DNA of 39,906 bases from Bacteroidota bacterium (GCA_038529855.1 JBCBDH010000001.1:1-39906), one strand, 5' to 3'. Positions 4,489 through 28,811 are shown, counted from the stretch's first letter. A program made the numbers and translations. The notes: a model not told the origin generated them from the sequence alone.

Positions 4489-7400
4489 GTGCTTACAAAC
4501 TATGCCAGGAATTTTATTTTATGGATAACCCTGAAAATCAAGCCTGTGGCAACCATCAATATTCCTATCTCGGAACTGGATCCGAGAGTTGTTCAGATTG
4601 GAAAATTAATTGGTATACTTGAGCAAAACGGTGCAAGTTCCCTGACCTTAAATGCCAATTGGTTTCAACAACCGCTCAGTTATTTACAAGCCATTCCCTA
4701 CAACCCAGAATTGCTCAATGTTCTGGAAACTTTATTGGGAGAGGCCAGTGGCAATTCTTTGGGAACACCCAAAAAAGCCTTAGATCGACTTTGGTATCCC
4801 TTCCTCAATCCATCAACTTCTGGCCAATCGACCAATCCTCAACCATTGGGTATTTACCTGGTCAGCAGCCAACCAGACCCTACCAAAGGAACCGTCATTG
4901 GCTTGGGTTTGCTCTACGATTTTGAGCCACAGACTAGCGTCACGGTTACGCCCTATGCTTACTTCCCTCTGCTCCAACTTCCGCTGGATGGTAATACTAA
5001 TTTTGCATTCATACTAGGTGCAGCCAATTATCCAGTTGAACTGGGTTGTAATATTTTAGGGCCTGGAGTTTTTCAAACTGGTACGAGTATTAATGATTTG
5101 TCTTTTGATGGCTTTATCGCAGGGGCGGATATTTATTTTCAGCAAGCCGCTTCGCTTGATCTGTCTTTTGTCAACCTCAAACTTCCAGGAGAATCCAAAG
5201 GCCAGAATACTTCGCTTCAAGAGTTGATCAATAACACGACTGTTGAAGATTGGATAAGTATTACTTTCTCTGTCCTTGGCGCACAATTGGCCAAAGCCAA
5301 TACCAGTACTGCCAATGCCAATGCCGATACCGCAGCCAATATCATCAATAGCATCTTGCAAATGCTTGGTCTTTTGGACATCGTTCCAGCTATTGATTGG
5401 GCGAGCCTCATTTCCAATCCCAGCCAGGCGGGTACTATTTTCAAGGACTGGTTTCGCTCTATCGTCAGTACACCAGAAAGCTTAAAAGCATGGCTCAATG
5501 ATTGGTATTGCATTTTCAATAATCAAAACCCATTAGCCGCTACAGCTAATGATCATATCAGTGGCGATGGCAGCAAGGAAAATCCTTATGCCATTAATAT
5601 CCTGGAATTTATCCTAAATGATCAAACCGCTATTCTTGTTGATTTTACCTTTGCTTTCCAAATCGACAATGATGGAGTGGTGACGATTTTCCCTGGCTTT
5701 GAAGTAGCCACTAGTGCCAAACAGGTCGTCTCTTCCATCAGCCAGTTGGGTCTATTGGTTCGAGCAAAGACGGAGGTTTTACAGGGTCAACTTTTTGTGG
5801 ATAATGGCCTCTCTAATTTTACGATTTTCCCTTCCTTCGAGATCATGGCGGTGGCCGCCAATCCCGATGGTCAAAGTCCGCTTTTTTCTGTAGCTGACCC
5901 AAGTTCTACCCAAGTAAGATTGAGCAATGGACAGCCACCAACTTTTAGCGTTGGTTCTATGCAAGTGGGCTTTGCGGTAGCGAATTATTACGATACGGCA
6001 AGTGCTAGCATCCCCGCACCTACCTTCCGCCTGACTGAAGTAATCGCAGGCGAAGGCACCTGGCCCTCTATTGACATGACCAATCTGAGTACGGACACCG
6101 TCTTGGAGATCATTGAGGCTATCGTCAAACAAAGTATTGATAATTTTTTCCAGCAGACTGGTTCTGTAGACTTATCGGATAACCTACAAGCCATTTTGGG
6201 ATTGAAAGCTCCGCCTAGCTTTAGTGGCACCTGGCCCTTGGCTGATCAATTACTACTTGCGCCCAATACCATCCAATTGCTGATCAATGATCCAATGGGT
6301 GCTCTGGGGGCTTATTATGAGCGCTGTTTGACGATGGCGGATGATAATGGACCGCTTTGGAATTATATGATGCCTTCCTTTGTCAAGGCGCTGGGAGGTA
6401 CGGGGGTTCAGCTAGCGGGAAAGGGGAGCGAGACGGAGCCTTGGCGAGTAGAGCTGATCAATATTGGCAATGCGGTAGCTTATGCGCAAAGTTGGTTGGA
6501 TAGCCAAAACCCCAAACAGCTACAGTTGGGTTTTTACTTCAAAGTGCCCGTTACGATTAGTGCGGTCGAGGCGGATATTGGAGTCAATGTCGATTTGATG
6601 CAGGCTACCTTACCCAATATTGATGGTACGGGTGCCTTTGCCGCTTCTTGGTTCCAAGGCTTTAATACCCAATTAGATCTTACTGGACCCAATAATACCC
6701 CCATTAAATCACCAACATTGGGTGGTTTGACTTTTGAAGCCAATAGCCTTTTGTTCCAATTGGGTTGGAATCAGCTCCAACAGTTCAACAGCACCGCTAC
6801 GCTTCAACAAGTGAGTATACAGCCTAAGGGCTTGACTGCTATTTCGCTGGGGGATTTGGTTTTCACCTCTATTGCCTGGTCAAGTACCCAATTGGAGCAA
6901 TTTGCTCAACCCGCAGTCAATGTACTGGGATTGCTGTTGATAGAGCATGGCGGAACGCTGGGGGTAGGAATAAGTACCATCCTGGGTTTTCTTCCTGGTC
7001 TTCCCGATCTTTTTGATGGATCGCAAAAGCAAGCGGATTATCCTTTCCCCATTCCCGAAAATTTCAGCCTGCCATCGACCTGGCCTGAGTTTAATTTGCT
7101 GACGCCCAATAATCCCTGGAAAGATGTAGAGACCCAACTCAGCAATCTATTGGCGGGTGGTGGAACCAATATGATTCCCGCCATGCAAATGCTTGGCTGG
7201 TCACTCACTCAAATCCTACCCAATCCACCTAGCAAAACGCCAGCTGGTAGCTTGACTGATCCCTGGTTTGTTTCGCTTCCCAATTTTTGGAATGTAGAGG
7301 TCTTGACTTGGTTGGGGGCTAATAATCAAATGGGCTTTGGTTTGCGGCGGCCAGTGAGCACCAATGTTGGGGCGGGTGTTAAATTACAAGTTAGTGTTCG

Positions 7401-10400
7401 GGCAGATGTGCCTGGTTTTATCATCACGCCTACCAGCAATCCTTCAATAAGCAATAGCGAAGCGATTTATCCGAGAATTTGGCTATCAGCCAGTATGACC
7501 AATGCCACAGAAGGTAGTCCTCTTTTCCGTGGGCCCAATGGCATTCTGGATATCGACCTCGTTTATTTTGGGGCATCTGCCATGCTGATCAATGGGGAAT
7601 TAGACTATGGTTTGGATTTATCTTTTACAGATAATCAGCAAGCGACGCCTGAGGTTATAGAACTGACCAAGGTGCCTGATCTTCCCCAATACACCTGTTT
7701 GCAGGGGATGAATCTGATGGAGGGTTTGGTGAATTCCTGGATGGTGAAAGTATCAGCGACCATCAATTCGGCTGGCGCCTCCTTCCCACAATTACAATCC
7801 TTACTAGACCTACTGTCCAATCTCGATTTGCTGAACAGCTCTGGATCAAGTGGCCAAAGAAGTTATGGCTTTAATTTTGGTGCATGGGATACGCTTTTGG
7901 CCAATCCAGGTCCTTTTTATTTGGCCAAGTTTAAGGTGGCGATGAATTCCGAAAGTGGGAATCAAAGCTTTTTACAAAATCTGGCTACCCTGTTGGGCTA
8001 TCCCAATTTCAATTTGTCTACCTCAGAAGATGGGATGCAGTACTTACTCTCTGCCCTGGGCTTACTCACCCCTTATCCCAATAAACTATACAACCTCAAT
8101 ATCAATGGATGGCTGCGATTGATTCGCAATCCAGTTACTTTTTTCCAAGTCAATATACCTGCATTATTTAGTGATATTGATTTGCTTCAATTGCTGATTT
8201 CTCAGCTTCAGTCCATCAACAGCCCAAACACTGATGTATTTAATGTAGATTCAACGGGCTACCTGGCTACACTACAAACCCCCACCACTAAGCCCATCCA
8301 AATAGGCAATCAGCTGATCTTATTTGGCTCTGTGCTTACAAATTTAAAGACCCTAAGTTTAACACTCAATATTGGATTAGGGGCCAATGTGATCAATTCC
8401 GCTATTGTGTTTGAGTATGTACCAGTATATAGTAATGGGACACTGACGGATAGCTATGCCTTTTTCTTGCAAGGATTACCAGACGAGGAAGTTCCCCCAT
8501 TCCCTCCCTTACAACTCTATCCCTTCCCAACGGATACTTCCAACTATCTGGCACAGCTAGGTTTGCAAATTCCTGTGTCTATACTTTCTACGCTTTTGGT
8601 CAATACCCTAAATAATTATGTGGTGCCAGCCAATCCTGTGGTCCTCAAGATTTTTGCGGTACTTGGATTGACCCGTACGTCGAGTATAACGAACAAAGAA
8701 GTGATTAAACCCCTGACTGGGATATTTATGCAGCCAGTTGAATGGGTATTGAGTACGGATGTCTTGGGCGATGGAACGCAGCATCTTGATCTCAATAAGC
8801 TAGGTGGATTATTATACAACCTGACAGATGCAGCAGGTATTGTCAGTCCTGATGGGGTGAGCCTAAAACCCTATGAAAGCGAAGGCAATAAAGATGGGGT
8901 TCAGTTGGCGGGTTTGCCTTATGGGGTAACGGTCACCTTTACGGCTAATCAGACGGTAGGAGCTAGTTTTGGGCTGAGTTTCCGCCCCACCATCACTGCC
9001 GTTCCGCTTAGGGTTGATCTGGCAGCTAGTTTGGCTTTTGGGTTGAGTAAAGGCGTCAATATCAATGGGCAGTCTACTTTGATTTATGATATTGATACGA
9101 GCACGGAGACCTATGCAAGAATCGTCAATACTTATTCACAAGACGCCTTTTCCTTGATGGTCGATGGCAAGTACCAAGGGCAGTCTTTCTACAAACCCAT
9201 TCAACTCGTTCCCTTCATTGGACTCAATCAATTTATTCCTGGTGCTGGTGATATTCAGCGGCTATTGGTATTGATTGGGGATAAACTATTTGCTGCTCTT
9301 GATACTTATGGTAGTGCTGATTTGAAGGCTTATGTCACGCCACTACAGAATTTGGCCAACATTCAAACTGGGCAGGAACTGTATGACTTCTTTGATCAAT
9401 TCATACAAAATCCGCTGGCTGCTTTTACTATCGCCAATATACAAATTACCCTCCCCAAAATTAATCAGTTTTTGACGGATTTGGGGATCAGTGGTTTTAG
9501 CCTTTCTTCTGATAATAAGCTGCTTTATTACCAGCAGGATTTTTCTAGTCGCAATAGTCAAGTCACTATTTACCTAGGGGAACAAAGCCTAAATGATACA
9601 GCGGTATTTGGGATGTGGATCGTACCCAAGGTACAGTTTGAATGGTTTACCTTACAACTCAATAATACGGGCATTGGCATCCAAACGCCAATCAATACGG
9701 GGGCTTATCAGCTTGAGTATAATGTAGAAATAGATTTGGGTTTTGATTTGAGTAGCCTGCCGATCCAAGGATTACCCACGCCATTGGTCTCCTTGAATTT
9801 TAATGGTAATCTCGACCAGATAAATGGTCCCCAATGGCGGGTTTATCCCATCCAAAAATCGACGGATACAGGGACCTTGCTCATCAATTTATTGCCTACG
9901 GCTCAATTGGAAATTACGGGTACGGGAGTGGTCCCCGCTGCACAATGGCTAGAGGCTTTTGCTACCCAATTTCTAGTCCCCTTTGTGGTCGATACCGCAC
10001 TGACCGTTCCGCAGATTGTTTACTTCCTGGATCAAATGACGATTGGAACGACACTGATTCATCCAGGACAGATATTGACTAAATGGGGTTTGATCAGCAA
10101 AGATGCAACCAGTGGAAATTACTACCTCAATCAACTCAACCAAGTTTTTGATCTCAATAATCCCGTTAGCATTATTACCCAATTGATTTATGCAGCGGCT
10201 GATCTTTTGAAAGGGGTAAATATCCTGCAGGTCTTTAATTCCAATAGTCAGTTATTGGGTTCCATCAGTATTGCTTCAGCCCCTCCTTCAGCGGGCAGTT
10301 CAGACACCTTGTATGGGCTCAATGTGCAGATGCAAGACATCATTGTCGCCACTGGCTCTAATGGCAAGGCCCCACAGTTGATCTTCCAATTGGGCAAATG

Positions 10401-13400
10401 GTTTGCTAATCAAAGCGATCAAAACAATTGGCTCAATCAAGATATCAAACCTGGCTTACAGGTCTTTTTGATCAAGCAAGCCGCTTCGGATAATAGCCTG
10501 AGTTTTTATCCCAAAATAGAGTTGGTCAGCATCGGCCTGGATTTCGGCGGAGCCAATATGGATAAGCCGCTGGTTGATGTACAAGGGACTACGATCCAAG
10601 GTATCGAACCCCGTATTTACCTCTCCTTGGATTTTGGTAATGGAACAACAAGTGTTGACTTTGGCTCTTCGATTTTGATCGATCAATTGGGCTTTCCGCT
10701 TGGCCCTGGCTTTGATTCTAGTACGGCCAATGGAAGTACCAATCCAGTCGCAGCAAATCTGCTCTCTTCTGGAGAAGCCAATAATAACAGCGGCGATACC
10801 AATGCGGTCAATCCTTCCTTTAGTCTTTCCGCTTCCTATGTGACGAGTGCTAATAATTTTCAGTTTCTCTTATACGACAGCAATAATGAGCCAACGGAAA
10901 AGATTTGGATTGCTGTGCAGCGAAGCTTTGGACCACTATCCTGTAGGAAGGTGGGCTTTGGTTGGGTGAGTAGTCTGGAATTGCTACAGCTCTTGTTTGA
11001 TGGTTCTGTATCGCTGGTAGGCTTGACGATGGATTTACAGGAATTGGAAATTGGTATTCCGATTAGTACGCCAACGACCTTTTCTGCTTATCAATTAGAC
11101 CTTGCGGGTATTAATGTCTCATTTGATGGAGGCCCTGTGAGTATTAATGGCGGTTTTCTAAAAGACGATACAGGAGGTATCATCCAATACACTGGTCAGG
11201 CCCTGCTTCAGGCGGCTAGCTTTAGTTTAGGTGCCTTTGGGTCTTATGGAACGGTCAATAATCAACCGTCTTTATTTGTCTTTGCCTTTCTCAATACGCC
11301 TTTAGGTGGTCCGCCCTTCTTTTTTATCAAAGGGCTCAGTGGTGGCTTTGGTTTTAACCGCGCGATCAATCTGCCTGCTGCCAATGAGGTTCCCTCTTTC
11401 CCATTCGTTGCAGGCATCAACAATCCAGCCATCCTTGGTGGGACCAATGGCGACCCTGCCGTAGCACCAAGTGGCACACAAGTCTTACAACAGCTAGGCA
11501 ATACCTATGTACCCCCAAGCTTGGGCAATTATTGGATCGCTGCGGGGGTTAATTTTACTTCTTTTGAGATCATTCAATCTCAAGCCATTGCAATTATCGC
11601 TTTTGGTCGGGAATTCGAAGTAAACATTATTGGTATGTCCGCCCTCAAATTGCCCAAAGTTGGGCGGACCTATGCCAATGCAGAAATGGCTTTTAAGATC
11701 GTCTTTAATCCTGGAGAAGGATTCTTCCAGGCAGAAGCTGTCCTTACTTCCAACTCCTGGGTGATTACGGAAGCCTGTAAATTGACTGGTGGCTTTGCTT
11801 TTTACGCCTGGTTTAAAGACCAAAGCGATAGCGGGGCAAAGGCTGGTGAGTTTGCCTTGACCCTGGGGGGCTATAATCCCAAGTTTACCATTCCAGCCTA
11901 CTACCCACGTGTTCCATTATTAGGGATTAACTGGCCAGTATCCAGTAAGGTGTCCATTAATGGAGGGGCCTATTTTGCGATGACGCCTTCTTGTGTGATG
12001 GCGGGTGGTAGCCTCAATGCCGTTTATCAATCTGGTGGGTTGAAGGCTTGGTTTTCGGCCAAGGCTGATTTCCTGATTTCTTGGAAGCCTTTTTACTATG
12101 ACATCAGTATTGGGGTGAGTGTGGGTGTTTCCTATACCTTTAAGATCATTTGGAGAGTGACAATGAAGGCAGAGCTTGGGGCTGATGTAGCCATCTGGGG
12201 GCCGCAGATGAGGGGCCAAGTTCGCGTGAATTGGTACATCATTTCCTTTACCATTTATTTTGGTGATGAAAATACCTCTCGAGGAAGTTCGAGTGTGATC
12301 AATTGGGACGAATTTAAGACCGCCTTTTTGCCATTGCCTCAAACGCCAGCACTTCCTCCTGCTTCCGAAACAGCTTTATCCAATGTCGCTCCTGCTGCTG
12401 CCATACCCATTCAGCAGGTCACACAAATTACGACGAGTCAAGGTTTGATCAAAAAGATCGACAATGCCAATAATGGAGAAGAAACTTGGGTGATTCGGGC
12501 TTCAGAATTTGAATTTGCCTTGTCCACAGCCGTCCCATTAAACAAGGTGACCCATACGGATACATCAGGAACAGAAGAAGTGATTATTAGCAGTGCTACG
12601 CCATTTGGTATTAAGCCATTGGGTAGTGTGACCTTCAGTCCAGACGGTACAGACAAAGTATCTAGTTTGCATCTTCGACTGACTTATGATAATACACCAG
12701 TCAATATCCTGGATTATTTCCAGATAACAGGTACGCAAAATACGACCAGCCTACCTACTTCGCTATGGGGAACAGTCAATAATGGACAGGAGACGCCCAG
12801 CAATACCTCTATTGATAATGTCTTGGTTGGCCTTGAATCGGTCAAGACCTATCCCGATCTTTTACCCGTCCCTGTTCCTCCTGTTGACATAGCCAATCTG
12901 GGTTATTTTACCCTGGACAATCGCAATTTGCCATTGGTCAGCCAGCCCCAATTAAAACCCACGGACCCCTTAAGGCAAGATGACGAATCGCTGGCTTTGA
13001 TTGCCACAACGGTGATGAGTACAGAGGTACTTGATTATCGAAATGAAATCATTGATGCGATTCTCGGGGTAGGCATTGATGTGGCATTTGATGGCCGACT
13101 GGATCAATTGGCTGCTTATGCACCAACGACTTTTCAGGCGCCGCCATTGGTAGGTAGTTTGGGAAGTGTTGGGGAAGTGACTAGTAGTGGAAGCAGTCTT
13201 GGGGTGCCTCAGTTCGAGTCGCCAGCGCCTAGCCTTGAGTCTATTCGATTACCAGAGGAGGAAAGCATTGAGGTGCAGGGGCAGATGCGTCTGCGTTCAT
13301 CGGGGCAATTAGCGTTGGGGGATGGTAGTTTATTAGCCAATAGTGCTCATATCCTTGGAAGCACTTATTGGGCAGCAGACGATCGCAAATTACAGCAGTC

Positions 13401-15838: not shown

Positions 15839-15843
15839 TAGCC

Positions 15844-16824: not shown

Positions 16825-16827
16825 CGC

Positions 16828-16857
16828 CTCACGGACTGAATTGGCACAGTCTGTGAG
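16828..16857 (+). terminator. Intra-cluster stem-loop 4 nt after the 326-aa gene
   Basis: The sequence ctcacggactg-aattggca-cagtctgtgag forms an 11-bp stem (one G.U pair) with an 8-nt loop. An AT-rich stretch including atttttta follows about 15 nt downstream. Confidence 0.4.
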
Positions 16858-16917
16858 TAGCGGGCAAGCCTTGTATTAAATATTTTTTATTGTAGTGTAT
16901 TAAAGAACAAAAAAGCA

Positions 16918-20679: not shown

Positions 20680-20704
20680 TAGAACCAAAAAATAGATTAA
20701 TATC

Positions 20705-22267
20705 ATGTCATCTTTGCTCAAATATACAGTCACGACCAATCCCAGTCCACTATACTTTACTCGGGATACCCTGAACCCTTCTATTACCAGTATTTTGATT
20801 GCCGTCACGCCAGATGGGACGGAGGATGTTCCTTGCAATGGCATACAATTCGCCATCCAGCTTGGAGCGGAGGATAAGGATTTGACGACGGCGAATAATG
20901 AGTTGAGCATTGTTCCAGAAAGCTTACAAACGACTTGGTCGATGGTGCGTTTTTCACCAGGTATTTATCGAGCTTATCCCATTGCACCAACAACGACCAT
21001 AAAGGCAGGAGAGGTACTTACCTTTCAATTGCAGGGCATTTTGGTCAATGAGAAAGCTGGATCGACGCTTTTGGGAATTGTAGCTAATTTACCTGGCGGG
21101 CCAGATTCTGATAATATTACTTTGACGAAGGTGCGCTCTAATTTAGAAATCAATAGTTTTGATGCTTCGCCTCAAGCCATTTACCCTGGAAACTTTAGCC
21201 AGTTGAGCTGGACAACGACCGCCGCTTCTTCCGTGACGATTCTACCTGAGGGCCCTCCCAGTCTGCCAACCAATGGTACGCTGGAGGTCAGCCCTAATGT
21301 AGCCACTACTTATTATTTGACGGTATTTGGAGAGGGGCCATCTATTACACAGAGCTTTCCTATTCAGGTCATTCGAGCGAAGATTATTGAATTTACCTCT
21401 ACGGATAATTCCATTGATCCTGGCCAACCAGTATTATTGAAGTGGAATGTCCAAGATGCCGCCAATATAGAAATAAGTCCAGGCGGCTATACCAATTTAC
21501 CAGCGATAGGCGAATTGGTGGTTTCGCCGCAGCAGACGACGGCCTATTCTTTGAAAGCCACCAATGTCAATTCAGAAGATCAGCGAGATCTGGTGATTAT
21601 TGTCAGTAATCCGAATCCAAAGATTCTATCTTTTAAGGCCAATCCCGAATCTTTTATTGTCGGCGAATCATCCCCTATTGAATTGTCCTGGGATGCTGAA
21701 AATACTACTACTGTTACCCTTACGCCTGGTAATTACGGTCCGCTTCCGCCCAATAGTTTGGTGATTGTCAATCCGACAGAACCGACCACTTATACCCTGA
21801 CGGCTACGAACAATACGGGTTTGATAGCTATAAAACAGGTGACCGTTTTTGATTCTTATACCAGACGATTTTATTATAATACTACGGAGGCGGCGATGGT
21901 TTATATTGTTATCAATTGTATTGATCTGCCTATTGGTAGTGCAGTAGGGATGCAAGCCTATCCCTATTTGCCACCCCCTTATGGACAGATACAAATTCCA
22001 AAGACCGACATTACGACTAAGCCCATATTCAAATTAGAGACTTTGGTTGCGGTGCCTGCCAATACCAATTTTACTTTTTACGTCAATTATTATCCGCAGG
22101 ATCAGGTTACCCCTCCACATGCGACCATTCAGCTTCAAGTAATTTTATATACTTCGGATGCGGTTCAGCTCAATGAGGATGGAACGGTGAGTATGAAGGC
22201 TGTTGTGAGGGGAACTTATCCCAAGACTACGAAGGACTTGGTTCTTTCACAGGACTTGAAACTTTAA
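20705..22267 (+). CDS. Tandem paralogue P1 (520 aa): conserved N-domain, three Ig-like repeats, variable C-domain
   Basis: N-terminus MSSLLKYTVTTNPSPLYFTRDTLNPSITSILIAVTP. It has three repeats of about 80 aa with the pattern I.SF.A.P..I..G....LSW....A..V.L.P......G...V.P...T.Y.L.A, at roughly 21140-21373, 21374-21607 and 21608-21847. The C-domain occupies 21848-22264. Confidence 0.9.
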   Translation: MSSLLKYTVTTNPSPLYFTRDTLNPSITSILIAVTPDGTEDVPCNGIQFAIQLGAEDKDLTTANNELSIVPESLQTTWSMVRFSPGIYRAYPIAPTTTIKAGEVLTFQLQGILVNEKAGSTLLGIVANLPGGPDSDNITLTKVRSNLEINSFDASPQAIYPGNFSQLSWTTTAASSVTILPEGPPSLPTNGTLEVSPNVATTYYLTVFGEGPSITQSFPIQVIRAKIIEFTSTDNSIDPGQPVLLKWNVQDAANIEISPGGYTNLPAIGELVVSPQQTTAYSLKATNVNSEDQRDLVIIVSNPNPKILSFKANPESFIVGESSPIELSWDAENTTTVTLTPGNYGPLPPNSLVIVNPTEPTTYTLTATNNTGLIAIKQVTVFDSYTRRFYYNTTEAAMVYIVINCIDLPIGSAVGMQAYPYLPPPYGQIQIPKTDITTKPIFKLETLVAVPANTNFTFYVNYYPQDQVTPPHATIQLQVILYTSDAVQLNEDGTVSMKAVVRGTYPKTTKDLVLSQDLKL

Positions 22268-22278
22268 TCAAAGGAATT

Positions 22279-22298
22279 CCTTGGGGCTTGCCCCGAGG
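22279..22298 (+). terminator. GC-rich tetraloop hairpin 12 nt after the P1 stop (possible attenuator)
   Basis: The sequence ccttgggg-cttg-ccccgagg forms an 8-bp stem (one G.U pair). The 3' arm can instead pair perfectly with cctcgggg at 22352-22359. Confidence 0.3.
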
Positions 22299-22389
22299 TG
22301 AAATATATCTTTGCCGCAAAAGCGGCGCCATTAGATACCTTGATGGCTCTGCCTCGGGGTAGTTTATTAACCTTTTTACAAAAAACATT

Positions 22390-23964
22390 ATGGCTGCTCC
22401 ACTTCGCTATACCCTTACGACGAATCCCAGTCCGCTTTACTACACTCGGGATTCGCTCAATCCTTCCATTACTAATATTCTAATTGCGATTACGCCTGAG
22501 GGGGAGGAAGAGGTTTTTTGTGAGGCCCTGCAGTTTACTATTTCGCTTGGCTCAGAGGACTTGGATCTGACTACAGTCGCTAATGAGTCAAGCATCGTTA
22601 CGGAGAGCTTGCAAACAACTTGGTCGATAGAGCGATTTTCGGCGGGGGTGTATCGAGCTTATCCTATTGCACCCAATAGTTCCATCAAAGCGGGAGAGGT
22701 CCTTACTTTTCAGTTGCAGGGTGTTATTGTCAATGAAGTGGCGGGTTCTACACTATTTGATATTGTGGCCAATCTACCCGAAGGGCCAGATGCTACGGAC
22801 ATTACCTTGACCAAGGTACGCTCCAATCTGGAAATCAATTCTTTTTCCGGAAATCCCTCTTCGATTTATCCTGAAGATTCTAGCCAATTGAGCTGGTCGA
22901 CGACGGCTGCCTCTACCGTGACAATCTTACCTGATGGCCCTCCAGGGCTGCCCACTAATGGCACCTTTGATGTCAGTCCCAATGTAGCGACGACTTATTA
23001 TTTGACAGTATTTGGAGAAGGGCCATCCCTTACACAGAGTTTTCCTATACAGGTCGTTCGGGCGCGGATCATTGAATTTACTTCTAGTGATAATTCCATT
23101 ATCCCTGGAGAACCGGTTGCGCTTCGGTGGAATGTGGAGGATGCGGCCTCTATTGAAATTAGTCCTGGCGATCACACGGATTTACCGCCTGTTGGAACTT
23201 TGGTCGTTATGCCTATGCAGACAACGGCTTATTCTTTGAGGGTAACGAATGTGAATTCGGAAGACCAGCGGGATTTGGTTATAGTAGTGAATACGCCCAG
23301 CCCGGAAATTATTTCTTTTAATGCCAGTCCATCTTCCTTTTTTGCACCTGAACCCGTTCCTATTCAATTGTCATGGAATATTGAAAATGCAAGCATTGTG
23401 ACGCTTTCTCCGGGCTCCTATGGGCCGCTTAGGTTGGTTGATTCTGTTACGGTGGATCCTACCGAGCCTACGACCTACACCTTGAGTGCCAGCAATGGAG
23501 GTTTAATAGATATAAAACAATTAACAGTTACGGAGTCTTTCTACAAGAGTTTTGAATATTACAATCAAAACGATGCACTTGCCTGGATTGATATTTTAAC
23601 TACCAATTTGCCAATTGGTAGTGCAGTAGCGATGTTTAGCTTGCCCTATTTTTCTGATCCCTTTCTTCGAGTGAGTATTCCAAAAACGACAGTCAATAGG
23701 TCTCCTAATTTTAAGGCTACGACTTTTTGTGACCTGTTCCGCAATACCAATTATACCTTTACCGTCACCTACTATCCAGAAGGGCAGCCCAACCCCCCCA
23801 ATGGCTCTATCCGTTTGGATGTCATCATCTACCGGTCGGGAGCTGCACAAATTGTAGATGGAAAGCTTGTGCTGAAACCTATTTCTGGAGATAATTATCC
23901 TGAGGAATCTTTTACCACCGTCTTTTCACAAGAAATCAAAATACCCAGTAATGAGACGGAGTAA
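22390..23964 (+). CDS. Tandem paralogue P2 (524 aa)
   Basis: Same architecture as P1, with N-terminus MAAPLRYTLTTNPSPLYYTRDSLNPSITNILIAITP and C-terminus ...VFSQEIKIPSNETE. Confidence 0.9.
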   Translation: MAAPLRYTLTTNPSPLYYTRDSLNPSITNILIAITPEGEEEVFCEALQFTISLGSEDLDLTTVANESSIVTESLQTTWSIERFSAGVYRAYPIAPNSSIKAGEVLTFQLQGVIVNEVAGSTLFDIVANLPEGPDATDITLTKVRSNLEINSFSGNPSSIYPEDSSQLSWSTTAASTVTILPDGPPGLPTNGTFDVSPNVATTYYLTVFGEGPSLTQSFPIQVVRARIIEFTSSDNSIIPGEPVALRWNVEDAASIEISPGDHTDLPPVGTLVVMPMQTTAYSLRVTNVNSEDQRDLVIVVNTPSPEIISFNASPSSFFAPEPVPIQLSWNIENASIVTLSPGSYGPLRLVDSVTVDPTEPTTYTLSASNGGLIDIKQLTVTESFYKSFEYYNQNDALAWIDILTTNLPIGSAVAMFSLPYFSDPFLRVSIPKTTVNRSPNFKATTFCDLFRNTNYTFTVTYYPEGQPNPPNGSIRLDVIIYRSGAAQIVDGKLVLKPISGDNYPEESFTTVFSQEIKIPSNETE

Positions 23965-24000
23965 ATGGATCAATCACCGCTCAAAAATCAAAAATACCCA

Positions 24001-25572
24001 ATGAATACTCTACTTCGATATACCTTGACGACCAATCCCAGTCCGCTTTATTATACTCGGGATTCGCTTAATCCTTCCATCACCAATATCCTCATAGCGA
24101 TTACGCCGAATGAAGGGGAAGAGGTGATGTGTGGTGCTTTGCAATTTAGGATAGCACTCGGTTCAGGTGCAGAAGATTTAACTACGGCTGATCAGGAAAT
24201 CAGCATTGTTCCAGAAAGCTTGCAAACGACTTGGTCGATAGAACGATTTTCAGCGGGTATTTATCGCGCTTTTCCCATTGCGCCCAATAAGGGTATCAAA
24301 GCAGGAGAGGTCATCACTTTTCAACTACAGGGAGTGGTGGTCAATGAGGCAGCGGGCTCTACTTTATTTAAAATTGATGCTACGCTAGCACCACCCAATG
24401 ATTCAGAAAATACTGAAATCACCTTGACTAAGGTGCGCTCTAATCTGGATATCGAAGATTTTTCGGGAAAACCTCCTGCGATCTATCCCGAGGAGTTTTG
24501 TACCTTGAGTTGGACGACCAAGGCTGCTTCCACCGTCGTATTACTACCCGATGCCCCTCCGGGCCTCCCGACGAACGGCACTTATGAAGTGAGTCCGGCT
24601 GTACCTACGACTTATTACTTGGTAGCCTATGGGGAAGGGCCAGCAGTGACAAAGACTTTTCCTGTACAAGTGACACGGGCAAAGATTATTGAATTTACCT
24701 CTAGTGCCAATTCCATTAATCCTGGTGAACCAGTACTACTTCAGTGGAGTGTTCAGGATGCTGCTTCCATCTCAATTAGTCCTGGCGATTACAATGATTT
24801 ACCACCTACGGGTACTTTGGTCGTTATGCCGCTTCAAACAACGGCCTATTCCTTGAAGGTGACCAATGTGAATTCAGAAGATCAGCGGGATTTGGTCGTT
24901 GTCGTCAGTGTGGCTGCTCCTGAAATCTTATCTTTTATTGCTAATCCCCCTTCCTTCTTTGTGCCTGAGCCTGTACCGATAGAGCTATCTTGGGATATTG
25001 TAAATGGCCAGGTGATTACCCTTTCTCCAGGTACTTATGGACCACTTCAGCAAAAGGATTCGGTTACGGTAAATCCCATAGTACCAACTACCTATACCCT
25101 GAGCGCCAGTAATGAAGGTTTGATTGATGTTAAGCAAATAACCGTATCTGAATACCTCACCAAGGAATTTAGGTATTATTCTGAATTGGTATCATTGGTC
25201 TACATCACTATTGAAGCTACTCGTTTGCCTATAGGTAGTGCCTTAAGTATGTATGGCCGACCGATCCTACCTCCTCCAGAGGGGCAGATAAAAATACCCA
25301 AAACAACCGTCAATAAATATCCAGACTATAAGCTACCCACCTTTGAACTGCTTACTGGTAATACTAATTTTACTTTTTATGTAACCTATTATCCAGAAGG
25401 ACAACCCAATCCAAGCAATGCCTCTGTAAAGCTGGATATCTATGTTTATTGGGCAGAGCATCTGGTGTTTAGCCCAGAAGGTAAGCTGAGTTTAGAACCT
25501 ATTGGAGACAAGCTTCCCAAAGCCTCCTTCACCAAGGTCTTTTCAGAAGAATTTAAAATCCCCTCTAGTTGA
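24001..25572 (+). CDS. Tandem paralogue P3 (about 523 aa from ATG 24001)
   Basis: The track start 23965 directly abuts the P2 stop and would add 12 residues (MDQSPLKNQKYP) that no other paralogue has. Those 36 nt resemble the P3/P4 and P4/P5 spacers. ATG 24001 gives MNTLLRYTLTTNPSPLYY, matching the other paralogues. Confidence 0.85.
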   Translation: MNTLLRYTLTTNPSPLYYTRDSLNPSITNILIAITPNEGEEVMCGALQFRIALGSGAEDLTTADQEISIVPESLQTTWSIERFSAGIYRAFPIAPNKGIKAGEVITFQLQGVVVNEAAGSTLFKIDATLAPPNDSENTEITLTKVRSNLDIEDFSGKPPAIYPEEFCTLSWTTKAASTVVLLPDAPPGLPTNGTYEVSPAVPTTYYLVAYGEGPAVTKTFPVQVTRAKIIEFTSSANSINPGEPVLLQWSVQDAASISISPGDYNDLPPTGTLVVMPLQTTAYSLKVTNVNSEDQRDLVVVVSVAAPEILSFIANPPSFFVPEPVPIELSWDIVNGQVITLSPGTYGPLQQKDSVTVNPIVPTTYTLSASNEGLIDVKQITVSEYLTKEFRYYSELVSLVYITIEATRLPIGSALSMYGRPILPPPEGQIKIPKTTVNKYPDYKLPTFELLTGNTNFTFYVTYYPEGQPNPSNASVKLDIYVYWAEHLVFSPEGKLSLEPIGDKLPKASFTKVFSEEFKIPSS

Positions 25573-25617
25573 TGAGTAATCAGCTAAAGCATTTGATCCA
25601 ATACGATAAAAAAATAA

Positions 25618-27186
25618 ATGATGGCGAATCAACTTAAATATGAAATAACGACGAATCCCAGTCCGCTTTACTATACCCGAGACACGCTCAATCCTTCCAT
25701 CACGAATATTATTATAGCGATTACACCAGAGGAGGAGGAAGATATTGTTTGTAGTGCATTGCAATTCAGTATAGCGCTCGGGCCGGATGCCAGCGATTTA
25801 ACTACCGTTAATAATGAAGCCAGCATTGTTCCAGAAAGTCTGCAAAGCACTTGGGCGATAGAGCGATTTTCGGCTGGTATTTATCGGGCCTTTCCCCTTA
25901 CTCCAGACCAAATTATTAAAGCAGGAGAGGTCATCGTATTTCAGTTACAAGGAATTGTGGTCAATGAAGCAGCGGGGGCTACATTGATGAATATTGTTGC
26001 TACGCTGTCGGAGGAGTCGCAAAATACCAATATCGTGCTGAATAAAGTGCGCTCTAATCTGGACATCGTAGATTTTTCGGGAAATCCTCCTGCGATCTAT
26101 CCCGAGGAGTTTTGCACCTTGAGTTGGACCACCGTTGCAGCTTCCACTGTTGTATTACTACCTGACGCCCCTCCGAGCCTTCCGACGAATGGCAGCTATA
26201 AAGTCAGTCCAACCGTACCTACGACCTATTACCTGATTGCCTATGGAGAAGGGCCAGCAGTGACGAAGACTTTTCCCGTGCAGGTGACTCGGGCCCAAAT
26301 AATAGAGTTTACCTCTAGTGATAATTCCATTATTCCCGGGCAAGCAGTTGCGCTTCGGTGGATTGTACAGGATGCGGCCTCTATAGAAATCAGTCCGGGC
26401 GATCATAAGGATTTACCGCCTACGGGTACTTTGGTCGTTATGCCTACGCAAACGACAGCTTACTCTTTGAAGGCGACGAATGTGAATTCGGAAGACCAGC
26501 AAGATTTGGTAGTGGTGGTGAATGTGCCTAGCCCAGAAATCCTTTCCTTTGATGCCGATCCACCTTCTTTTTATGCCCTTGACCCCGTCCCCGTTGAATT
26601 GTCCTGGCGGATAGAAAATGCAAAAATCGTATCGCTATCTCCGGGTACTTACGGACCGCTCAATTTGGTTGATTCGGTTACCGTAAATCCTATGCAAACC
26701 ACAACTTACACCCTAACTGCCAGTAATGACGGTTTAATTGATGTAAGGCAACTGACGGTTCAAGAGACCTATACAAAGGAGTTTGATTATTATAACGCAA
26801 GTGATGTCCTGGCTTGGATTGATTTATTGTGTTTTAACCTACCCATTGGAAGCGCAGTCGCCCTGCATGCTACGCCTCAATTTTTGCAACCTGACTCTCG
26901 GATCAATATCCCAAAAACAACGGTCGATACCTATCCGGAATTTAAGGCTTCAACTTTTAGCGGCCTTGTTGGGGATACGACCTATACATTTTTTTTCACT
27001 TATTATCCAGAAGGACAGCCCACTCCTCCCGACGGCTATTTCCGACTAGAAATTGTTACCTACAATTCGGAAGCTGCGCAGCTGGTGGATGGCAAGATTG
27101 TCTTAAAATCTATTTCTGGGGATAATTATCCCGAAGAGTCCTATACAAAAGTCTTTTCGAAAGAATTTAAAATTCCTTCTGGTTGA
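25618..27186 (+). CDS. Tandem paralogue P4 (522 aa)
   Basis: N-terminus MMANQLKYEITTNPSPLYYTRDTLNPSITNIIIAITP, same architecture, C-terminus ...VFSKEFKIPSG. Confidence 0.9.
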   Translation: MMANQLKYEITTNPSPLYYTRDTLNPSITNIIIAITPEEEEDIVCSALQFSIALGPDASDLTTVNNEASIVPESLQSTWAIERFSAGIYRAFPLTPDQIIKAGEVIVFQLQGIVVNEAAGATLMNIVATLSEESQNTNIVLNKVRSNLDIVDFSGNPPAIYPEEFCTLSWTTVAASTVVLLPDAPPSLPTNGSYKVSPTVPTTYYLIAYGEGPAVTKTFPVQVTRAQIIEFTSSDNSIIPGQAVALRWIVQDAASIEISPGDHKDLPPTGTLVVMPTQTTAYSLKATNVNSEDQQDLVVVVNVPSPEILSFDADPPSFYALDPVPVELSWRIENAKIVSLSPGTYGPLNLVDSVTVNPMQTTTYTLTASNDGLIDVRQLTVQETYTKEFDYYNASDVLAWIDLLCFNLPIGSAVALHATPQFLQPDSRINIPKTTVDTYPEFKASTFSGLVGDTTYTFFFTYYPEGQPTPPDGYFRLEIVTYNSEAAQLVDGKIVLKSISGDNYPEESYTKVFSKEFKIPSG

Positions 27187-27230
27187 TGACCAATCAGCTA
27201 AACCATTTGAGTAAGCTTGATAAAAAATAA

Positions 27231-28811
27231 ATGATGGCCAATAAACTTAAATATGAGGTGACCACCAATCCCAGCCCGCTTTACTATACCCGGGATTCCC
27301 TCAATCCTTCGATCACGAATATTCTGATTGCGATTACGCCCAAAGAGAAGGAAGATGTACTGTGCAATGGCCTACAATTTGCCATTCAGCTGGGATCAGA
27401 TGATAGAGGGTTGACAACAGTAAATAACGAATCGAGTATTGTCCCTGAAAGTCTACAGGCTTCTTGGGTGATGGAAAGGTTTTCAGTAGGAATCTATCGG
27501 GCTTTTCCATTGACTCCTGGGACGGTGATCAAAGCTGGGGAGGTCATTACCTTTCAATTGCAAGGGGTGATTGTCAATGAAGTGGAAGGGACAAGCTTAC
27601 TCAATATCGTCGCCAATCTGCCTGGTGGTTCAGAGGATAATAATATCACGCTGTTTAAGGTAAGATCGAGTTTGGATATCGGCAATTTTTCTGCTAATCC
27701 CACGGAGGTTTATCCAGGGCAGTCGAGTAACCTGAGTTGGACAAGCACGGCAGCGTCTAAAGTGATCCTATTACCCGATAATCCTTCGGATTTACCGACC
27801 ACTGGTACGCATCCGGTCAGCCCAATCATTTCTACTACTTACTATTTGACGGTTTTTGGGGAAGGGCCCTCGATTACCAAGAGCTTTCCCCTTCAGGTCG
27901 TCAGAGCTAATATTGTCGAATTTACTTCCAGCGCAAATTCTATCAAGGCCGGAGAAACAGTAGAGCTTCGATGGGTAGTTCAAGGTGCCGCTTCTATAGA
28001 GATCACGCCTGGTAATTATAAAAACCTACCAGCAAGCGGTTCGATCACCGTACAGCCTACCTCTATTACCGTTTATTCACTCAAAGCCAGTAATGTTAAT
28101 TCCCAAGATCAGCGGGATTTGACCATCGTGGTAGATAATCCGATCCCTAGAATTGTCAGCTTTGGGGCTGATCCCTTGTTTATCTTATGGTTCAATCCCT
28201 CGCCAGTTCAGTTATTTTGGTCAATTACCGATGCAACACTTATTGATCTTACCCCAGGGCCTCATCCAGAACTTCAGCCTGAAGGCAGTCTGACTGTTTA
28301 TCCAAATCAAACTACGACCTATACATTGACGGCCAGTAATGTACAACATACTGTCTCGCAATCTATCACGGTCACCCTTGGTCAGCAGGAAGCGACTGTT
28401 TACCAGCAAGGAGCCGAAGGGGGGCGGATGATCATTGGTCTTTACGAGACCAATTTACCACTTGGGAGTGCCGTCTCCTTATTCTGTCCAGAAACCGGAA
28501 CCAATCCTAAAATTGATATTCCTAAGACGACCATTACAGAGGACTTCCGAGGGTATGTGGCTGCGATGATGTCTGATATACCAGCTAATTTCGTCGGTAC
28601 TTTTTATGTGACTTATTATCCTGAGGGTAAGCCCCTTCCAACAGATGCCACACTCGAGGTGCGGGTGATTCCCTATAATCCACCTTTTCCACCCTATAAT
28701 GTTCTACAAAATCCATCTATGGCCTTTCCTGCTGATGGGGCAGCCAATGCAGCCAATACTTCTGGGATTGTATTTTCAAAAGTGATGGAGATCAAGAAAG
28801 GAGGAGGCTAA
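27231..28811 (+). CDS. Tandem paralogue P5 (526 aa), the most divergent, with a distinct C-terminal tail
   Basis: N-terminus MMANKLKYEVTTNPSPLYYTRDSLNPSITNILIAITP. It has three Ig-like repeats. The C-domain keeps NLPLGSAV, IPKTTI and FYVTYYPEGKP but ends in a P/A/N-rich tail (...IPYNPPFPPYNVLQNPSMAFPADGAANAANTSGIVFSKVMEIKKGGG). Confidence 0.9.
   Translation: MMANKLKYEVTTNPSPLYYTRDSLNPSITNILIAITPKEKEDVLCNGLQFAIQLGSDDRGLTTVNNESSIVPESLQASWVMERFSVGIYRAFPLTPGTVIKAGEVITFQLQGVIVNEVEGTSLLNIVANLPGGSEDNNITLFKVRSSLDIGNFSANPTEVYPGQSSNLSWTSTAASKVILLPDNPSDLPTTGTHPVSPIISTTYYLTVFGEGPSITKSFPLQVVRANIVEFTSSANSIKAGETVELRWVVQGAASIEITPGNYKNLPASGSITVQPTSITVYSLKASNVNSQDQRDLTIVVDNPIPRIVSFGADPLFILWFNPSPVQLFWSITDATLIDLTPGPHPELQPEGSLTVYPNQTTTYTLTASNVQHTVSQSITVTLGQQEATVYQQGAEGGRMIIGLYETNLPLGSAVSLFCPETGTNPKIDIPKTTITEDFRGYVAAMMSDIPANFVGTFYVTYYPEGKPLPTDATLEVRVIPYNPPFPPYNVLQNPSMAFPADGAANAANTSGIVFSKVMEIKKGGG

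What the first reader, a model, noticed from the sequence alone, without database searches (positions are those of the whole stretch)
4489..28811. Nine-gene, 24.3-kb co-directional cluster with no recognisable family: candidate undescribed multi-component assembly
Seen: nine + strand ORFs are separated by -17 (or +4), 5, 93, 25, 122, 36 (or 0), 45 and 44 nt, which is operon-like. They comprise a 3269-aa giant protein, three unknown proteins (518, 326 and 1253 aa), and five paralogues built from Ig-like repeats. By eye, none of the nine has a Sec signal peptide, lipobox, TM helix, Walker-type NTP-binding motif or catalytic signature. In contrast, flanking genes 1-1397, 2509-4125, 31759-32130, 33309-34280 and 34442-36118 have obvious signal peptides or lipoboxes. 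The cluster proteins are N/Q/S/T/G/P-rich and Cys-poor, a composition typical of beta-rich exported or structural proteins. No sheath, tube, baseplate, VgrG, Rhs/YD or ATPase signature is visible, so this does not look like a known contractile injection system, T6SS or Tc toxin locus. Inference: the cluster may be a self-contained apparatus in which a giant scaffold and three core proteins display or deliver one of several interchangeable Ig-domain proteins. Export would then be by a non-Sec route or by lysis. An intracellular structure is the alternative.
Basis: partly seen in the sequence, partly recalled or inferred. Interest (0 to 1): 0.85.

Follow-up and report, generated by a model that had tools for sequence, protein, structure and literature searches.

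The report
Widespread uncharacterised five-protein bacterial module
The nine genes are an expanded copy of a five-component gene module found in at least a dozen bacterial phyla; no function or solved structure is known for any core part, and it looks like a protein complex that carries swappable, fibre-like binding subunits.

Summary
The nine co-directional ORFs are real, at the stated coordinates and spacings. None has a signal peptide, TM helix or Walker A motif. One claim fails: the giant protein carries Pfam DUF6603 (E=1e-142), a family of unknown function. The cluster is not an orphan. DUF6603 protein -> G2 (~500 aa) -> G3 (~310 aa) -> G4 (~1250 aa) keep one order and strand in 77 of 79 testable loci from at least 12 phyla. 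A fifth gene type (P) follows G4 in at least 54 of 83 loci. Natural G2::G3 fusions, and G4 proteins that end in the P N-terminal domain, argue for a physical complex. The 3269-aa giant is the canonical ~1280-aa DUF6603 protein plus a ~1570-aa insertion and a C-terminal extension; this giant class recurs across phyla. A confident G4 model (pLDDT 88) has no match in the PDB or a viral structure library. The DUF6603 core is a ~39-strand meander beta-sheet resembling only giant barrels and the ApoB belt. P proteins have a conserved docking domain, Ig-like spacers and a swappable C-terminal binding module, never a toxin or enzyme. The window's five P paralogues are old, all under purifying selection, and diverge fastest at the C-terminus. 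Function is unknown. My best guess (~0.35) is a target-binding, membrane-engaging complex. No paper mentions it.

The parts
4489..14298 (+). G1, giant DUF6603 protein (3269 aa from the GTG at 4489; the likely true start is the GTG at 4546)
   Evidence: ORF. Pfam PF20248 DUF6603, E=1.1e-142. The start is inferred from alignment to canonical homologue P0251. The giant size class (33 ORFs of 2994-3298 aa plus one of 2695 aa, out of 73 complete G1 ORFs) recurs across phyla.
4546..5274 (+). G1 N-terminal conserved domain (aa 20-262)
   Evidence: Aligns to residues 1-225 of the canonical 1279-aa DUF6603 protein P0251 (27% identity, E=3e-14).
5275..9987 (+). G1 giant-class insertion (aa 263-1833, ~1570 aa)
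   Evidence: Absent from canonical ~1280-aa homologues. Conserved in giant-class homologues, whose tblastn matches run contiguously over about q16-3242. No internal repeats by self-BLAST. No Pfam hit.
9988..13158 (+). G1 canonical core (aa 1834-2890), which includes the Pfam DUF6603 region (nt 10915-12519)
   Evidence: 37% identical over 1112 columns to P0251. AlphaFold2 model of aa 1834-2900: pLDDT 79.7, pTM 0.52, about 39 long antiparallel strands in three meander blocks, then a small beta domain and C-terminal helices. Foldseek finds only weak architecture-level matches to giant beta-barrels and the ApoB100 belt. No PDB sequence relative.
13159..14298 (+). G1 C-terminal extension (aa 2891-3269), more highly charged
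   Evidence: Lies beyond the end of canonical homologues. Conserved in giant-class loci up to about q3242-3268. Charged-residue content 23% against 9-16% elsewhere in G1.
14282..15838 (+). G2 (518 aa; 511 aa from the alternative ATG at 14303)
   Evidence: More than 2445 homologues, with no Pfam family on the query and none on 119 of the 120 listed hits. Invariant residues include H201, R203, N227, R228, S242, E244, E336, R343 and R388. No PDB relative by sequence or profile. Fused to G3 in Streptomyces and Paenibacillus.
15844..16824 (+). G3 (326 aa)
   Evidence: Always directly follows G2. 40-sequence profile A8 has no PDB relative. Occurs fused to G2 in monoderm lineages.
16918..20679 (+). 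G4 (1253 aa), the proposed hub for the P proteins
   Evidence: 411 homologues, with no Pfam family on the query; one listed hit (P0223) carries PF07484 Collar. AlphaFold2 model of aa 1-1200: pLDDT 88.3, pTM 0.85, mixed alpha/beta with a long helical hairpin at aa 404-511. No Foldseek match in the PDB (best E=1.3) or the viral BFVD library (best E=0.83). At least 27 of 120 homologues end in one or two copies of the P N-domain.
20705..22267 (+). P1 (520 aa): N-domain aa 1-142, three Ig-like repeats aa 143-383, C-terminal domain aa 384-520
   Evidence: Paralogue alignment. PHROG virion-structural-protein hits on the Ig region. N-domain family. C-terminal domain family.
22390..23964 (+). P2 (524 aa), paralogue of P1
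   Evidence: 63% identical to P1. Under purifying selection, omega about 0.1 outside the C-terminus.
23965..25572 (+). P3 (535 aa; 523 aa from the internal ATG at 24001), paralogue
   Evidence: 59% identical to P1. dN/dS.
25618..27186 (+). P4 (522 aa), paralogue
   Evidence: 56% identical to P1. dN/dS.
27231..28811 (+). P5 (526 aa), the most divergent paralogue
   Evidence: 52% identical to P1. Its C-terminal domain matches stand-alone 105-140-aa proteins and the 343-aa protein of related loci, E down to 3e-18.

Best explanation
SHOWN: the nine genes are an expanded copy of a conserved, horizontally spread five-component module: DUF6603 protein, G2, G3, G4 and P. Its products very probably form one multi-protein complex. 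Within it, G4 is the partner of the P proteins. P proteins start with a ~120-140-aa beta-sandwich-like domain, and many G4 homologues carry that same domain at their own C-terminus. P proteins are modular: docking domain, then Ig-like spacers, then an interchangeable C-terminal binding module. The window carries five long-maintained P variants that differ mainly in that last module, so the complex can be fitted with alternative specificities. INFERRED (about 0.35): the complex is assembled in the cytoplasm, since no component has an export signal. It acts as a target-recognition and membrane-engaging device. P subunits bind a surface ligand in the way phage receptor-binding proteins do. The ~39-strand amphipathic-looking meander sheet of the DUF6603 core engages or inserts into a lipid membrane. 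G2, G3 and G4 form the body that couples the two. Release would be by lysis or an unknown route. This is a functional analogy to Tc toxin complexes and tailocin fibres without any homology to them.
For: Synteny: 265 confirmed places in species-representative genomes. G1->G2->G3->G4 are in order on one strand in 77 of 83 fetched loci; 4 exceptions are contig ends and 2 are genuine. Phyla include Bacteroidota, Acidobacteriota, Pseudomonadota (alpha, beta, gamma), Desulfobacterota, Myxococcota, Actinomycetota, Cyanobacteriota, Bacillota, Nitrospirota, Chlorobiota, Zixibacteria and Vulcanimicrobiota. Fusions: G2::G3 is a single annotated CDS in Paenibacillus and Streptomyces. At least 27 of 120 G4 homologues end in one or two P N-domains, and P0223 is G4 + N-domain + tail Collar. 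A P-type gene lies directly after G4 in at least 54 loci. P C-termini in 46 + 88 proteins are Kelch, WD40, YncE, PD40, NHL or BNR propellers, phage tail Collar, T4 Gp10_C, collagen, TIG or fn3, with no toxin or enzyme domains. Window paralogues: mean pairwise identity is 0.69 in the N-domain and 0.39 in the C-terminus. Synonymous sites are saturated, omega is 0.1-0.25 in the N-domain and Ig repeats, and pN is roughly twice as high in the C-terminus. Tandem P arrays also occur in the nearest relative, L087. The DUF6603 core is nearly all long beta-hairpins, and its only structural neighbours are SlpA, LptD, FimD/PapC, SprA, porins and the ApoB100 belt. The low-charge, Cys-poor, N/Q/S/T/G-rich composition resembles surface or virion proteins.
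Against: No export signal, secretion-system gene, holin or conserved lysin accompanies the module; a muramidase is linked in only two related loci. No effector or toxin domain was found anywhere in the core or in the P proteins. The Foldseek similarity of the DUF6603 core is weak (best E=2e-4, TM 0.05-0.25) and shows an architecture class only. Whether the sheet closes into a barrel or is amphipathic was not tested. The complex itself is inferred from synteny and fusions and has not been observed. In 22 loci the module is operonic with a class-3 lipase and a FAAL-KS polyketide synthase, which this model does not explain.
Confidence: 0.35

Rival explanations
1. Intracellular anti-phage (abortive-infection type) system. 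The P proteins are cytoplasmic sensors whose variable C-terminal modules recognise phage structural proteins. On sensing, the DUF6603 beta-sheet protein permeabilises the cell's own membrane.
For: No component has an export signal. The distribution is patchy and consistent with horizontal transfer, and includes large plasmids. There are several long-maintained 'sensor' paralogues with fast-evolving C-termini. Some P modules (tail Collar, Gp10_C) are phage-derived and could bind phage parts. The DUF6603 core has a barrel-like architecture.
Against: No PADLOC hit for any of the nine proteins. The window's flanks are not a defence island. Only about 8 defence-family hits came from 98 flanking ORFs across loci. 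No nuclease, NTPase or other signalling enzyme is present. Ig-like repeats, collagen and a ~13% charged composition are unusual for cytoplasmic sensors. The operonic link to lipase and PKS genes is not explained.
Confidence: 0.2
2. Cell-envelope or surface structure (an adhesin-, fibre- or S-layer-like assembly) exported by an unrecognised non-Sec route. The DUF6603 sheet anchors it in the envelope and the P proteins act as outward-facing adhesive tips.
For: The composition resembles surface proteins. The P modules are Ig-like, Kelch, fn3, TIG and collagen. The top Foldseek neighbour of the DUF6603 core is the Deinococcus S-layer/outer-membrane protein SlpA, along with usher, LptD and SprA barrels.
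Against: No signal peptides, lipoboxes, sortase or T9SS signals, and no secretion genes in or near the module. The same module occurs in diderm and monoderm phyla, which argues against an outer-membrane-specific barrel. Matches to barrels are weak (TM 0.25 or less).
Confidence: 0.15
3. Intracellular lipid-associated scaffold. The DUF6603 meander sheet wraps or coats a lipid body or hydrophobic product like the ApoB100 beta-belt, and works together with the neighbouring lipase and polyketide/fatty-acid enzymes.
For: ApoB100 belt structures are among the Foldseek hits (prob 0.77-0.85). In 22 of 83 loci a FAAL-KS PKS gene follows the P gene within a few nucleotides (for example a 2-nt gap in L031), and in 11 of those loci plus Corallococcus L001 a Lipase_3 gene precedes G1. 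The Corallococcus P protein has a sub-threshold LBP/BPI/CETP lipid-binding hit (E=0.0026).
Against: The lipase and PKS genes are absent from the window and from most loci. The model does not explain the fibre-like polymorphic P proteins or the tail Collar, Gp10_C and collagen modules. The ApoB similarity is as weak as the barrel similarity.
Confidence: 0.1
4. Domesticated or cryptic virion or mobile-element structural module, i.e. remnants of a virus-like particle.
For: The Ig repeats of the P proteins match cyanophage 'virion structural proteins'. Phage tail Collar and Gp10_C modules occur in P homologues.
Against: G2 has no match in 50,697 phage genomes. The G4 model has no match in the BFVD viral structure library. 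No capsid, portal, terminase, integrase or replication gene is present in the window or conserved in the loci. All genes are under purifying selection and strictly syntenic in cellular genomes.
Confidence: 0.04

Closest known systems
Tc (ABC) toxin complexes (TcA/TcB/TcC)
   Same: A multi-gene operon of very large proteins without signal peptides. It occurs patchily in soil and aquatic bacteria with large genomes. It has Ig-like or receptor-binding modules plus a membrane-engaging element, and export is not by the Sec pathway. These properties of Tc toxins are from established knowledge and were not tested here.
   Different: No TcA, TcB or TcC Pfam or NCBIfam domain and no RHS/YD repeats. Foldseek of G4 and of the DUF6603 core retrieved no Tc structure. 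No toxin or effector domain was identified. The putative membrane element is a beta-sheet, not an alpha-helical channel. Specificity subunits are separate, swappable proteins.
Phage, tailocin and eCIS receptor-binding proteins and tail fibres
   Same: P proteins have a conserved N-terminal attachment domain, a spacer of Ig-like repeats and a variable C-terminal binding module. Homologues carry tail Collar, T4 Gp10_C and collagen modules. They occur in tandem arrays of paralogues that differ at the C-terminus.
   Different: There is no sheath, tube, baseplate, spike, tape measure or ATPase. The core genes are absent from phage genomes. The attachment partner, G4, has a fold with no solved or viral relative.
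Giant single-chain beta-barrels (SlpA, LptD, FimD/PapC ushers, T9SS SprA) and the ApoB100 beta-belt
   Same: The DUF6603 core is a very large antiparallel meander sheet with long strands and tight turns. These are its only Foldseek neighbours.
   Different: E-values are marginal (2e-4 at best), TM-scores are 0.05-0.25 and sequence identity is 6-13%. There is no signal peptide. The module also occurs in monoderm bacteria. This is an architecture-class resemblance, not evidence of homology.
Polymorphic toxin and effector loci with tandem variable-C-terminus cassettes
   Same: A constant N-terminal part with a swapped C-terminal module, multiple tandem paralogues, and related free-standing C-terminal-domain genes in sister loci.
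   Different: The variable modules are binding domains (propellers, Collar, small beta-rich domains), never nuclease, deaminase, peptidase or lipase toxins. No immunity-gene pattern is seen.

Membership tests
Pfam DUF6603 (PF20248) | Match to the family HMM above the gathering threshold | tested here: met
   G1 aa 2143-2677 covers profile positions 1-499 of 502: 476.6 bits against a cut-off of 27, E=1.1e-142. Homologues are annotated 'DUF6603 domain-containing protein'.
Unnamed DUF6603-G2-G3-G4-P module (defined here) | Homologues of all four core proteins in the order G1, G2, G3, G4 on one strand | tested here: met
   The window has all four in that order. The same order is seen in 77 of 83 loci.
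Unnamed DUF6603-G2-G3-G4-P module (defined here) | A gene directly after G4 whose product starts with the conserved ~120-aa N-domain | tested here: met
   The window has five such genes. The domain is found after G4 in at least 54 loci and at the C-terminus of at least 27 of 120 G4 homologues.
Contractile injection systems (eCIS, T6SS, R-type tailocin) | Sheath, inner tube, gp25/gp6-type baseplate wedge, VgrG/PAAR spike, AAA+ ATPase | tested here: not met
   No such Pfam, NCBIfam or PHROG hit in any of the nine proteins. The G4 and DUF6603 models retrieve no CIS structure.
Tc toxin complex | TcA-type domains (VRP1, TcA/TcB-binding, pore-forming); a TcB/TcC RHS-repeat cocoon with SpvB and beta-propeller | tested here: not met
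   No Pfam or NCBIfam hit. No Tc structure appears among the Foldseek results.
T9SS cargo and Sec-dependent surface adhesins | N-terminal Sec signal peptide or lipobox plus a C-terminal sorting domain | tested here: not met
   No hydrophobic N-terminus in any of the nine, whereas the flanking lipoproteins have one. No CTD or other sorting-domain model hit.
RTX / T1SS giant toxins and adhesins | Ca-binding nonapeptide repeats and adjacent ABC transporter and MFP genes | tested here: not met
   No HemolysinCabind or other repeat family. No internal repeats in G1. No transporter genes in the cluster.
Known anti-phage defence systems (PADLOC-DB v2) | Match to a defence-protein model and residence in a defence island | tested here: not met
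   No hit for the nine proteins. The flanks give only a weak caspase hit. About 8 hits from 98 flanking ORFs in other loci. Systems described after 2023 are not covered.
Phage tail-fibre / receptor-binding protein (for the P proteins) | N-terminal anchor, a fibre or spacer, a C-terminal receptor-binding domain, and trimeric assembly on a baseplate | tested here: inconclusive
   The domain order fits, and homologues carry Collar, Gp10_C and collagen modules. The window's own C-terminal domain has no known relative. Oligomeric state and binding were not testable, and the anchor partner is not a phage baseplate.
Outer-membrane beta-barrel protein (for the DUF6603 core) | Sec signal peptide, a closed transmembrane barrel, and restriction to diderm bacteria | tested here: not met
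   No signal peptide. The module occurs in Streptomyces and Paenibacillus.

The most novel reading that the evidence does not exclude
This is a previously unrecognised class of bacterial multi-protein machine. It is unrelated in sequence and fold to contractile injection systems, Tc toxins or any numbered secretion system. It is built from at least four protein families with no solved relative (one, G4, shown here to have a fold with no match). It uses swappable fibre-like subunits to choose its target and a giant beta-sheet protein to engage a membrane. It is present in at least a dozen phyla.
Probability: 0.35. Interest if true: 0.9.

Novelty: categorically new. Interest (0 to 1): 0.78.

Why it matters
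If the module is one machine, it is a large and widely distributed piece of bacterial cell biology that has gone unstudied. It was confirmed at 265 places in species-representative genomes, a count limited to sequences matching two peptide patterns, and one component alone has more than 2,400 homologues. There is no literature on it, no functional annotation and no solved structure. The G4 protein adds a confidently predicted ~1,250-residue architecture with no relative in the PDB. The swappable binding subunits (Kelch and WD40 propellers, tail-collar, collagen, a new small domain) suggest a programmable targeting device. Comparable systems (phage receptor-binding proteins, tailocins, eCIS, Tc toxins) have become tools for targeted delivery and biocontrol. 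The finding is also directly testable, because the module occurs in culturable, genetically tractable bacteria: Corallococcus coralloides DSM 2259, Streptomyces clavuligerus ATCC 27064, Paenibacillus polymyxa, Azospirillum and Flavobacterium.

Tried and rejected
- Sequence and profile searches of all five families against PDB sequences returned nothing at or below E=0.07.
- NCBIfam and PADLOC gave no hits for the nine proteins. PHROGs hit only the Ig repeats.
- Foldseek of the G4 model against the PDB and the viral BFVD library found nothing.
- Phage origin was rejected: G2 is absent from 50,697 phage records.
- Defence-island residence was rejected: the flanks are mostly housekeeping genes.
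- A linked lysis enzyme was considered. Muramidase/PG-binding genes occur upstream in only two related alphaproteobacterial loci, so this is not a general feature.
- Internal repeats in the giant's insertion: none found.
- Distant homology among the core families by hhalign: none found.
- Promoter and terminator scans were at chance level.
- tRNA and Rfam scans of the window found nothing.
- Literature searches for DUF6603, PF20248, Corallococcus locus tags and descriptive term sets found no relevant paper.
- The window's source organism could not be retrieved. Lipobox style and nearest relatives hint at Bacteroidota or a related group, but this is not established.
- The S. clavuligerus plasmid record carried no usable annotation.
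- G2, G3, the P proteins and the giant's insertion could not be modelled because only two structure predictions were allowed.

Full report
**1. Observation**

A hydropathy and motif scan found no N-terminal signal peptide, no convincing TM helix and no Walker A motif in any of them. All nine are Cys-poor and N/Q/S/T/G/P-rich. G1 and the five ~520-aa proteins have only ~13% charged residues. Several flanking genes do have signal-peptide or lipobox N-termini.

The five ~520-aa genes are paralogues, 52-63% identical to the first.

One part of the title is wrong. The 3269-aa protein matches Pfam DUF6603 (PF20248) at aa 2143-2677 with E=1.1e-142. That family has no known function, and no paper in the searchable library mentions it. 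The other eight proteins have no Pfam, NCBIfam or PADLOC family. Only the Ig-like repeats of the paralogues hit PHROG 'virion structural protein' families.

The giant's true start is probably the GTG at 4546. Consensus promoter and terminator scans are at chance level and say nothing either way about co-transcription.

**2. The cluster is a member of a widespread, strictly syntenic module**

I call the genes G1 (giant), G2 (518 aa), G3 (326 aa), G4 (1253 aa) and P1-P5.

G2 alone has more than 2,445 homologues. The query has no Pfam family, and those that a source names are called 'hypothetical' or 'uncharacterized'. The first three neighbourhoods I looked at were Corallococcus (Myxococcota), Mucilaginibacter (Bacteroidota) and a metagenome contig. 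All three show the same four genes with nearly the same sizes and order.

A pattern scan of one genome per species confirmed 265 places, and 80 were fetched. tblastn of the nine window proteins against all 83 loci shows G1->G2->G3->G4 in order on one strand in 77 of them. Four of the six exceptions are contig ends. Two are genuine: Moorena L027 has no adjacent G4 or P, and Sporomusa L048 has no DUF6603 gene upstream.

The hosts span Bacteroidota, Acidobacteriota, Alpha-, Beta- and Gammaproteobacteria, Desulfobacterota, Myxococcota, Actinomycetota, Cyanobacteriota, Bacillota, Nitrospirota, Chlorobiota, Zixibacteria and Vulcanimicrobiota. The module also sits on large replicons listed in the plasmid collection for Streptomyces, Embleya, Kitasatospora and Paenibacillus. 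There the genes other than the DUF6603 protein are annotated 'hypothetical protein'.

Genes outside the module differ from locus to locus and are mostly housekeeping. The module therefore travels as a unit.

**3. A fifth component, and evidence for physical interaction**

An iterated HMM of the paralogues' first ~140 residues finds the same domain at the N-terminus of the gene directly after G4 in at least 54 loci.

An exhaustive profile search of 1.84 billion representative proteins found 143 clusters. The domain lies almost always at the extreme N-terminus of 400-800-aa proteins, or at about residue 1260-1380 of 1400-1700-aa proteins. Three of the latter (P0136, P0152, P0153) are on the G4 homologue list. 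At least 27 of the 120 listed G4 homologues end in one or two copies of this domain, and P0223 continues from it into a phage tail-collar module.

In Paenibacillus and Streptomyces, G2 and G3 are a single annotated CDS.

These natural fusions, together with the synteny, are the main evidence that the products form one complex and that P docks on G4. This is inference and has not been observed.

**4. Anatomy of the parts**

*G1.* The canonical DUF6603 protein is ~1250-1350 aa. P0251 (1279 aa) aligns to window G1 aa 20-262 and aa 1834-2890. The giant is therefore the canonical protein plus a ~1570-aa insertion and a ~380-aa C-terminal extension. The giant form is a conserved class: 33 of 73 complete G1 ORFs are 2994-3298 aa (plus one of 2695 aa) across several phyla, and the rest are ~950-1950 aa. 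The insertion has no detectable repeats.

An AlphaFold2 model of the canonical core (aa 1834-2900) has pLDDT 79.7 and pTM 0.52. It consists of about 39 long antiparallel strands in three meander blocks, followed by a small beta domain and C-terminal helices. Foldseek against the PDB returns only weak matches (best E=2e-4, TM 0.05-0.25, 6-13% identity). These are to giant beta-barrels (SlpA, LptD, FimD/PapC ushers, SprA, porins) and to the ApoB100 beta-belt. I read this as an architecture class, not homology.

*G4.* The model of aa 1-1200 is confident (pLDDT 88.3, pTM 0.85). It is mixed alpha/beta with a long helical hairpin at aa 404-511. It has no match in the PDB (best E=1.3) or in the viral BFVD library (best E=0.83).

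*G2 and G3.* There is no PDB relative even by profile search. G2 has an invariant set of polar residues (H201, R203, N227, R228, S242, E244, E336, R343, R388) whose meaning is unknown. The core families are unrelated to each other by hhalign.

*P.* The architecture is N-domain (aa 1-142), three Ig-like repeats (aa 143-383) and a C-terminal domain (aa 384-520). Across 46 + 88 P-type proteins the C-terminal modules are Kelch, WD40, YncE, PD40, NHL or BNR beta-propellers, phage tail Collar, T4 Gp10_C, collagen, TIG or fn3. None is a toxin or enzyme domain.

The window's own ~100-aa C-terminal domain is system-specific. In sister loci it appears as several free-standing 105-140-aa proteins and at the end of 300-400-aa proteins encoded after a Kelch-type P gene.

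Among the window's five copies, mean pairwise identity falls from 0.69 in the N-domain to 0.39 in the C-terminus. Synonymous sites are saturated. omega is 0.1-0.25 in the N-domain and Ig repeats, and non-synonymous divergence is roughly twice as high in the C-terminus. The copies are old, and all are maintained. Tandem P arrays also occur in the nearest relative.

**5. What it is not**

- It is not a contractile injection system, a Tc toxin, T9SS cargo, an RTX protein or a PADLOC-listed defence system. The defining features were tested and not met.
- It is not phage-borne. G2 has no match in 50,697 phage genomes, and only the Ig repeats are shared with T4-like cyanophage virion proteins.
- It is not a defence-island resident.

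**6. Mechanism**

Shown: a conserved five-component module, with P as a modular protein whose C-terminal binding module is exchangeable and whose N-domain is the junction with G4.

Inferred (about 0.35): the complex is assembled in the cytoplasm. G2, G3 and G4 form the body. P subunits act as receptor-binding fibres of alternative specificity. The DUF6603 meander sheet engages a membrane or lipid. Release is by lysis or an unknown route. This works like a Tc toxin or a tailocin fibre set but is not a member of either family.

Rivals:
- an abortive-infection-type defence with P as sensor and DUF6603 as membrane effector (~0.2);
- a surface or envelope structure exported by an unknown route (~0.15);
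- a lipid-associated intracellular scaffold (~0.1), suggested by the ApoB-like hits and by the operonic class-3 lipase and FAAL-KS PKS genes in 22 loci;
- a domesticated virion module (<0.05).

The main weaknesses are that there is no export route, no effector, no model for G2, G3 or P, and no direct evidence of a complex.

**7. Novelty and verdict**

Six literature searches found nothing on this system. The library is limited to open-access papers and bioRxiv, so absence is not proof.

The individual families exist in databases as 'hypothetical' or 'DUF6603'. The module, its fifth polymorphic component, the fusions and the lack of any structural match for G4 appear to be undescribed. I rate it categorically new as a system, with interest 0.78.

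Noticed in passing
window 36173-37504 (- strand): A 443-aa protein combining a peptidoglycan-binding domain (PG_binding_1, aa 36-94) with a caspase-like Peptidase_C14 domain. It gives a weak PADLOC 'caspase' hit, E=1.7e-7. It could be a bacterial orthocaspase tethered to the cell wall. It lies 7 kb from the cluster and I found no link to it.
   Followed up: partly
window 30001-31719: A low-GC stretch (35% against ~45% in the rest of the window) holding a Lys-rich 463-aa ORF (30328-31719, 10.6% K). It has no family apart from a sub-threshold BT_3535-like hit. It may be foreign DNA.
   Followed up: partly
window 22346-22362: The only terminator-like hairpin that falls in an intergenic gap of the cluster, the 122-nt P1-P2 spacer. 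It is weak (6 pairs) and within chance expectation.
   Followed up: no
window 2509-4125 and 34442-36118: Two flanking lipoprotein-like genes with 'SC'/'AC' lipobox-type N-termini: an M81/MlrC-family metallopeptidase and a PKD-domain protein. The lipobox style and the nearest homologues hint at a Bacteroidota-like host, but the source organism could not be retrieved.
   Followed up: partly
L031, L035, L044, L056, L061, L063, L066, L069-L071, L074, L075, L001 and others (22 loci): In one giant-G1 subfamily (Bacteroidota, Hahella, Corallococcus, a Vulcanimicrobiota MAG) the module has two extra neighbours. A large fatty-acyl-AMP-ligase + ketosynthase PKS gene follows it within a few nucleotides in 22 loci, and a class-3 lipase gene precedes it in 11 of those loci plus L001. 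Neither is present in the window.
   Followed up: partly
L013, L017, L023, L024, L026, L029, L032, L034 and others (short-G1 subfamily): Two further recurrent accessory genes with no Pfam family. One is a ~694-aa protein with an N-terminal signal or TM segment (21 loci). The other is a ~291-aa protein with a TM anchor followed by a glycine/threonine-rich repetitive region (19 loci). A 215-aa protein also occurs upstream of G1 in 9 loci.
   Followed up: no
L084 (Paenibacillus polymyxa plasmid p-YT9A) 1-2140: About 9 kb upstream of the module are a 3.1-kb gene annotated 'phage baseplate assembly protein V', a pentapeptide-repeat protein, a GH-E family nuclease fragment and an ankyrin-repeat protein. 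This looks like a toxin/immunity region and is probably unrelated to the module.
   Followed up: no
L048 (Sporomusa silvacetica) 26-9760: Where the DUF6603 gene is expected upstream of G2 there is instead a run of about ten small + strand ORFs of 126-182 aa. Whether they replace G1 functionally is unknown.
   Followed up: no
L077 4003-5325 and L080 4315-5601: An N-acetylmuramidase-type protein with a C-terminal peptidoglycan-binding domain lies on the same strand a few kb upstream of the short DUF6603 gene in two related alphaproteobacterial MAGs. It is a candidate lysis enzyme but is not general.
   Followed up: partly
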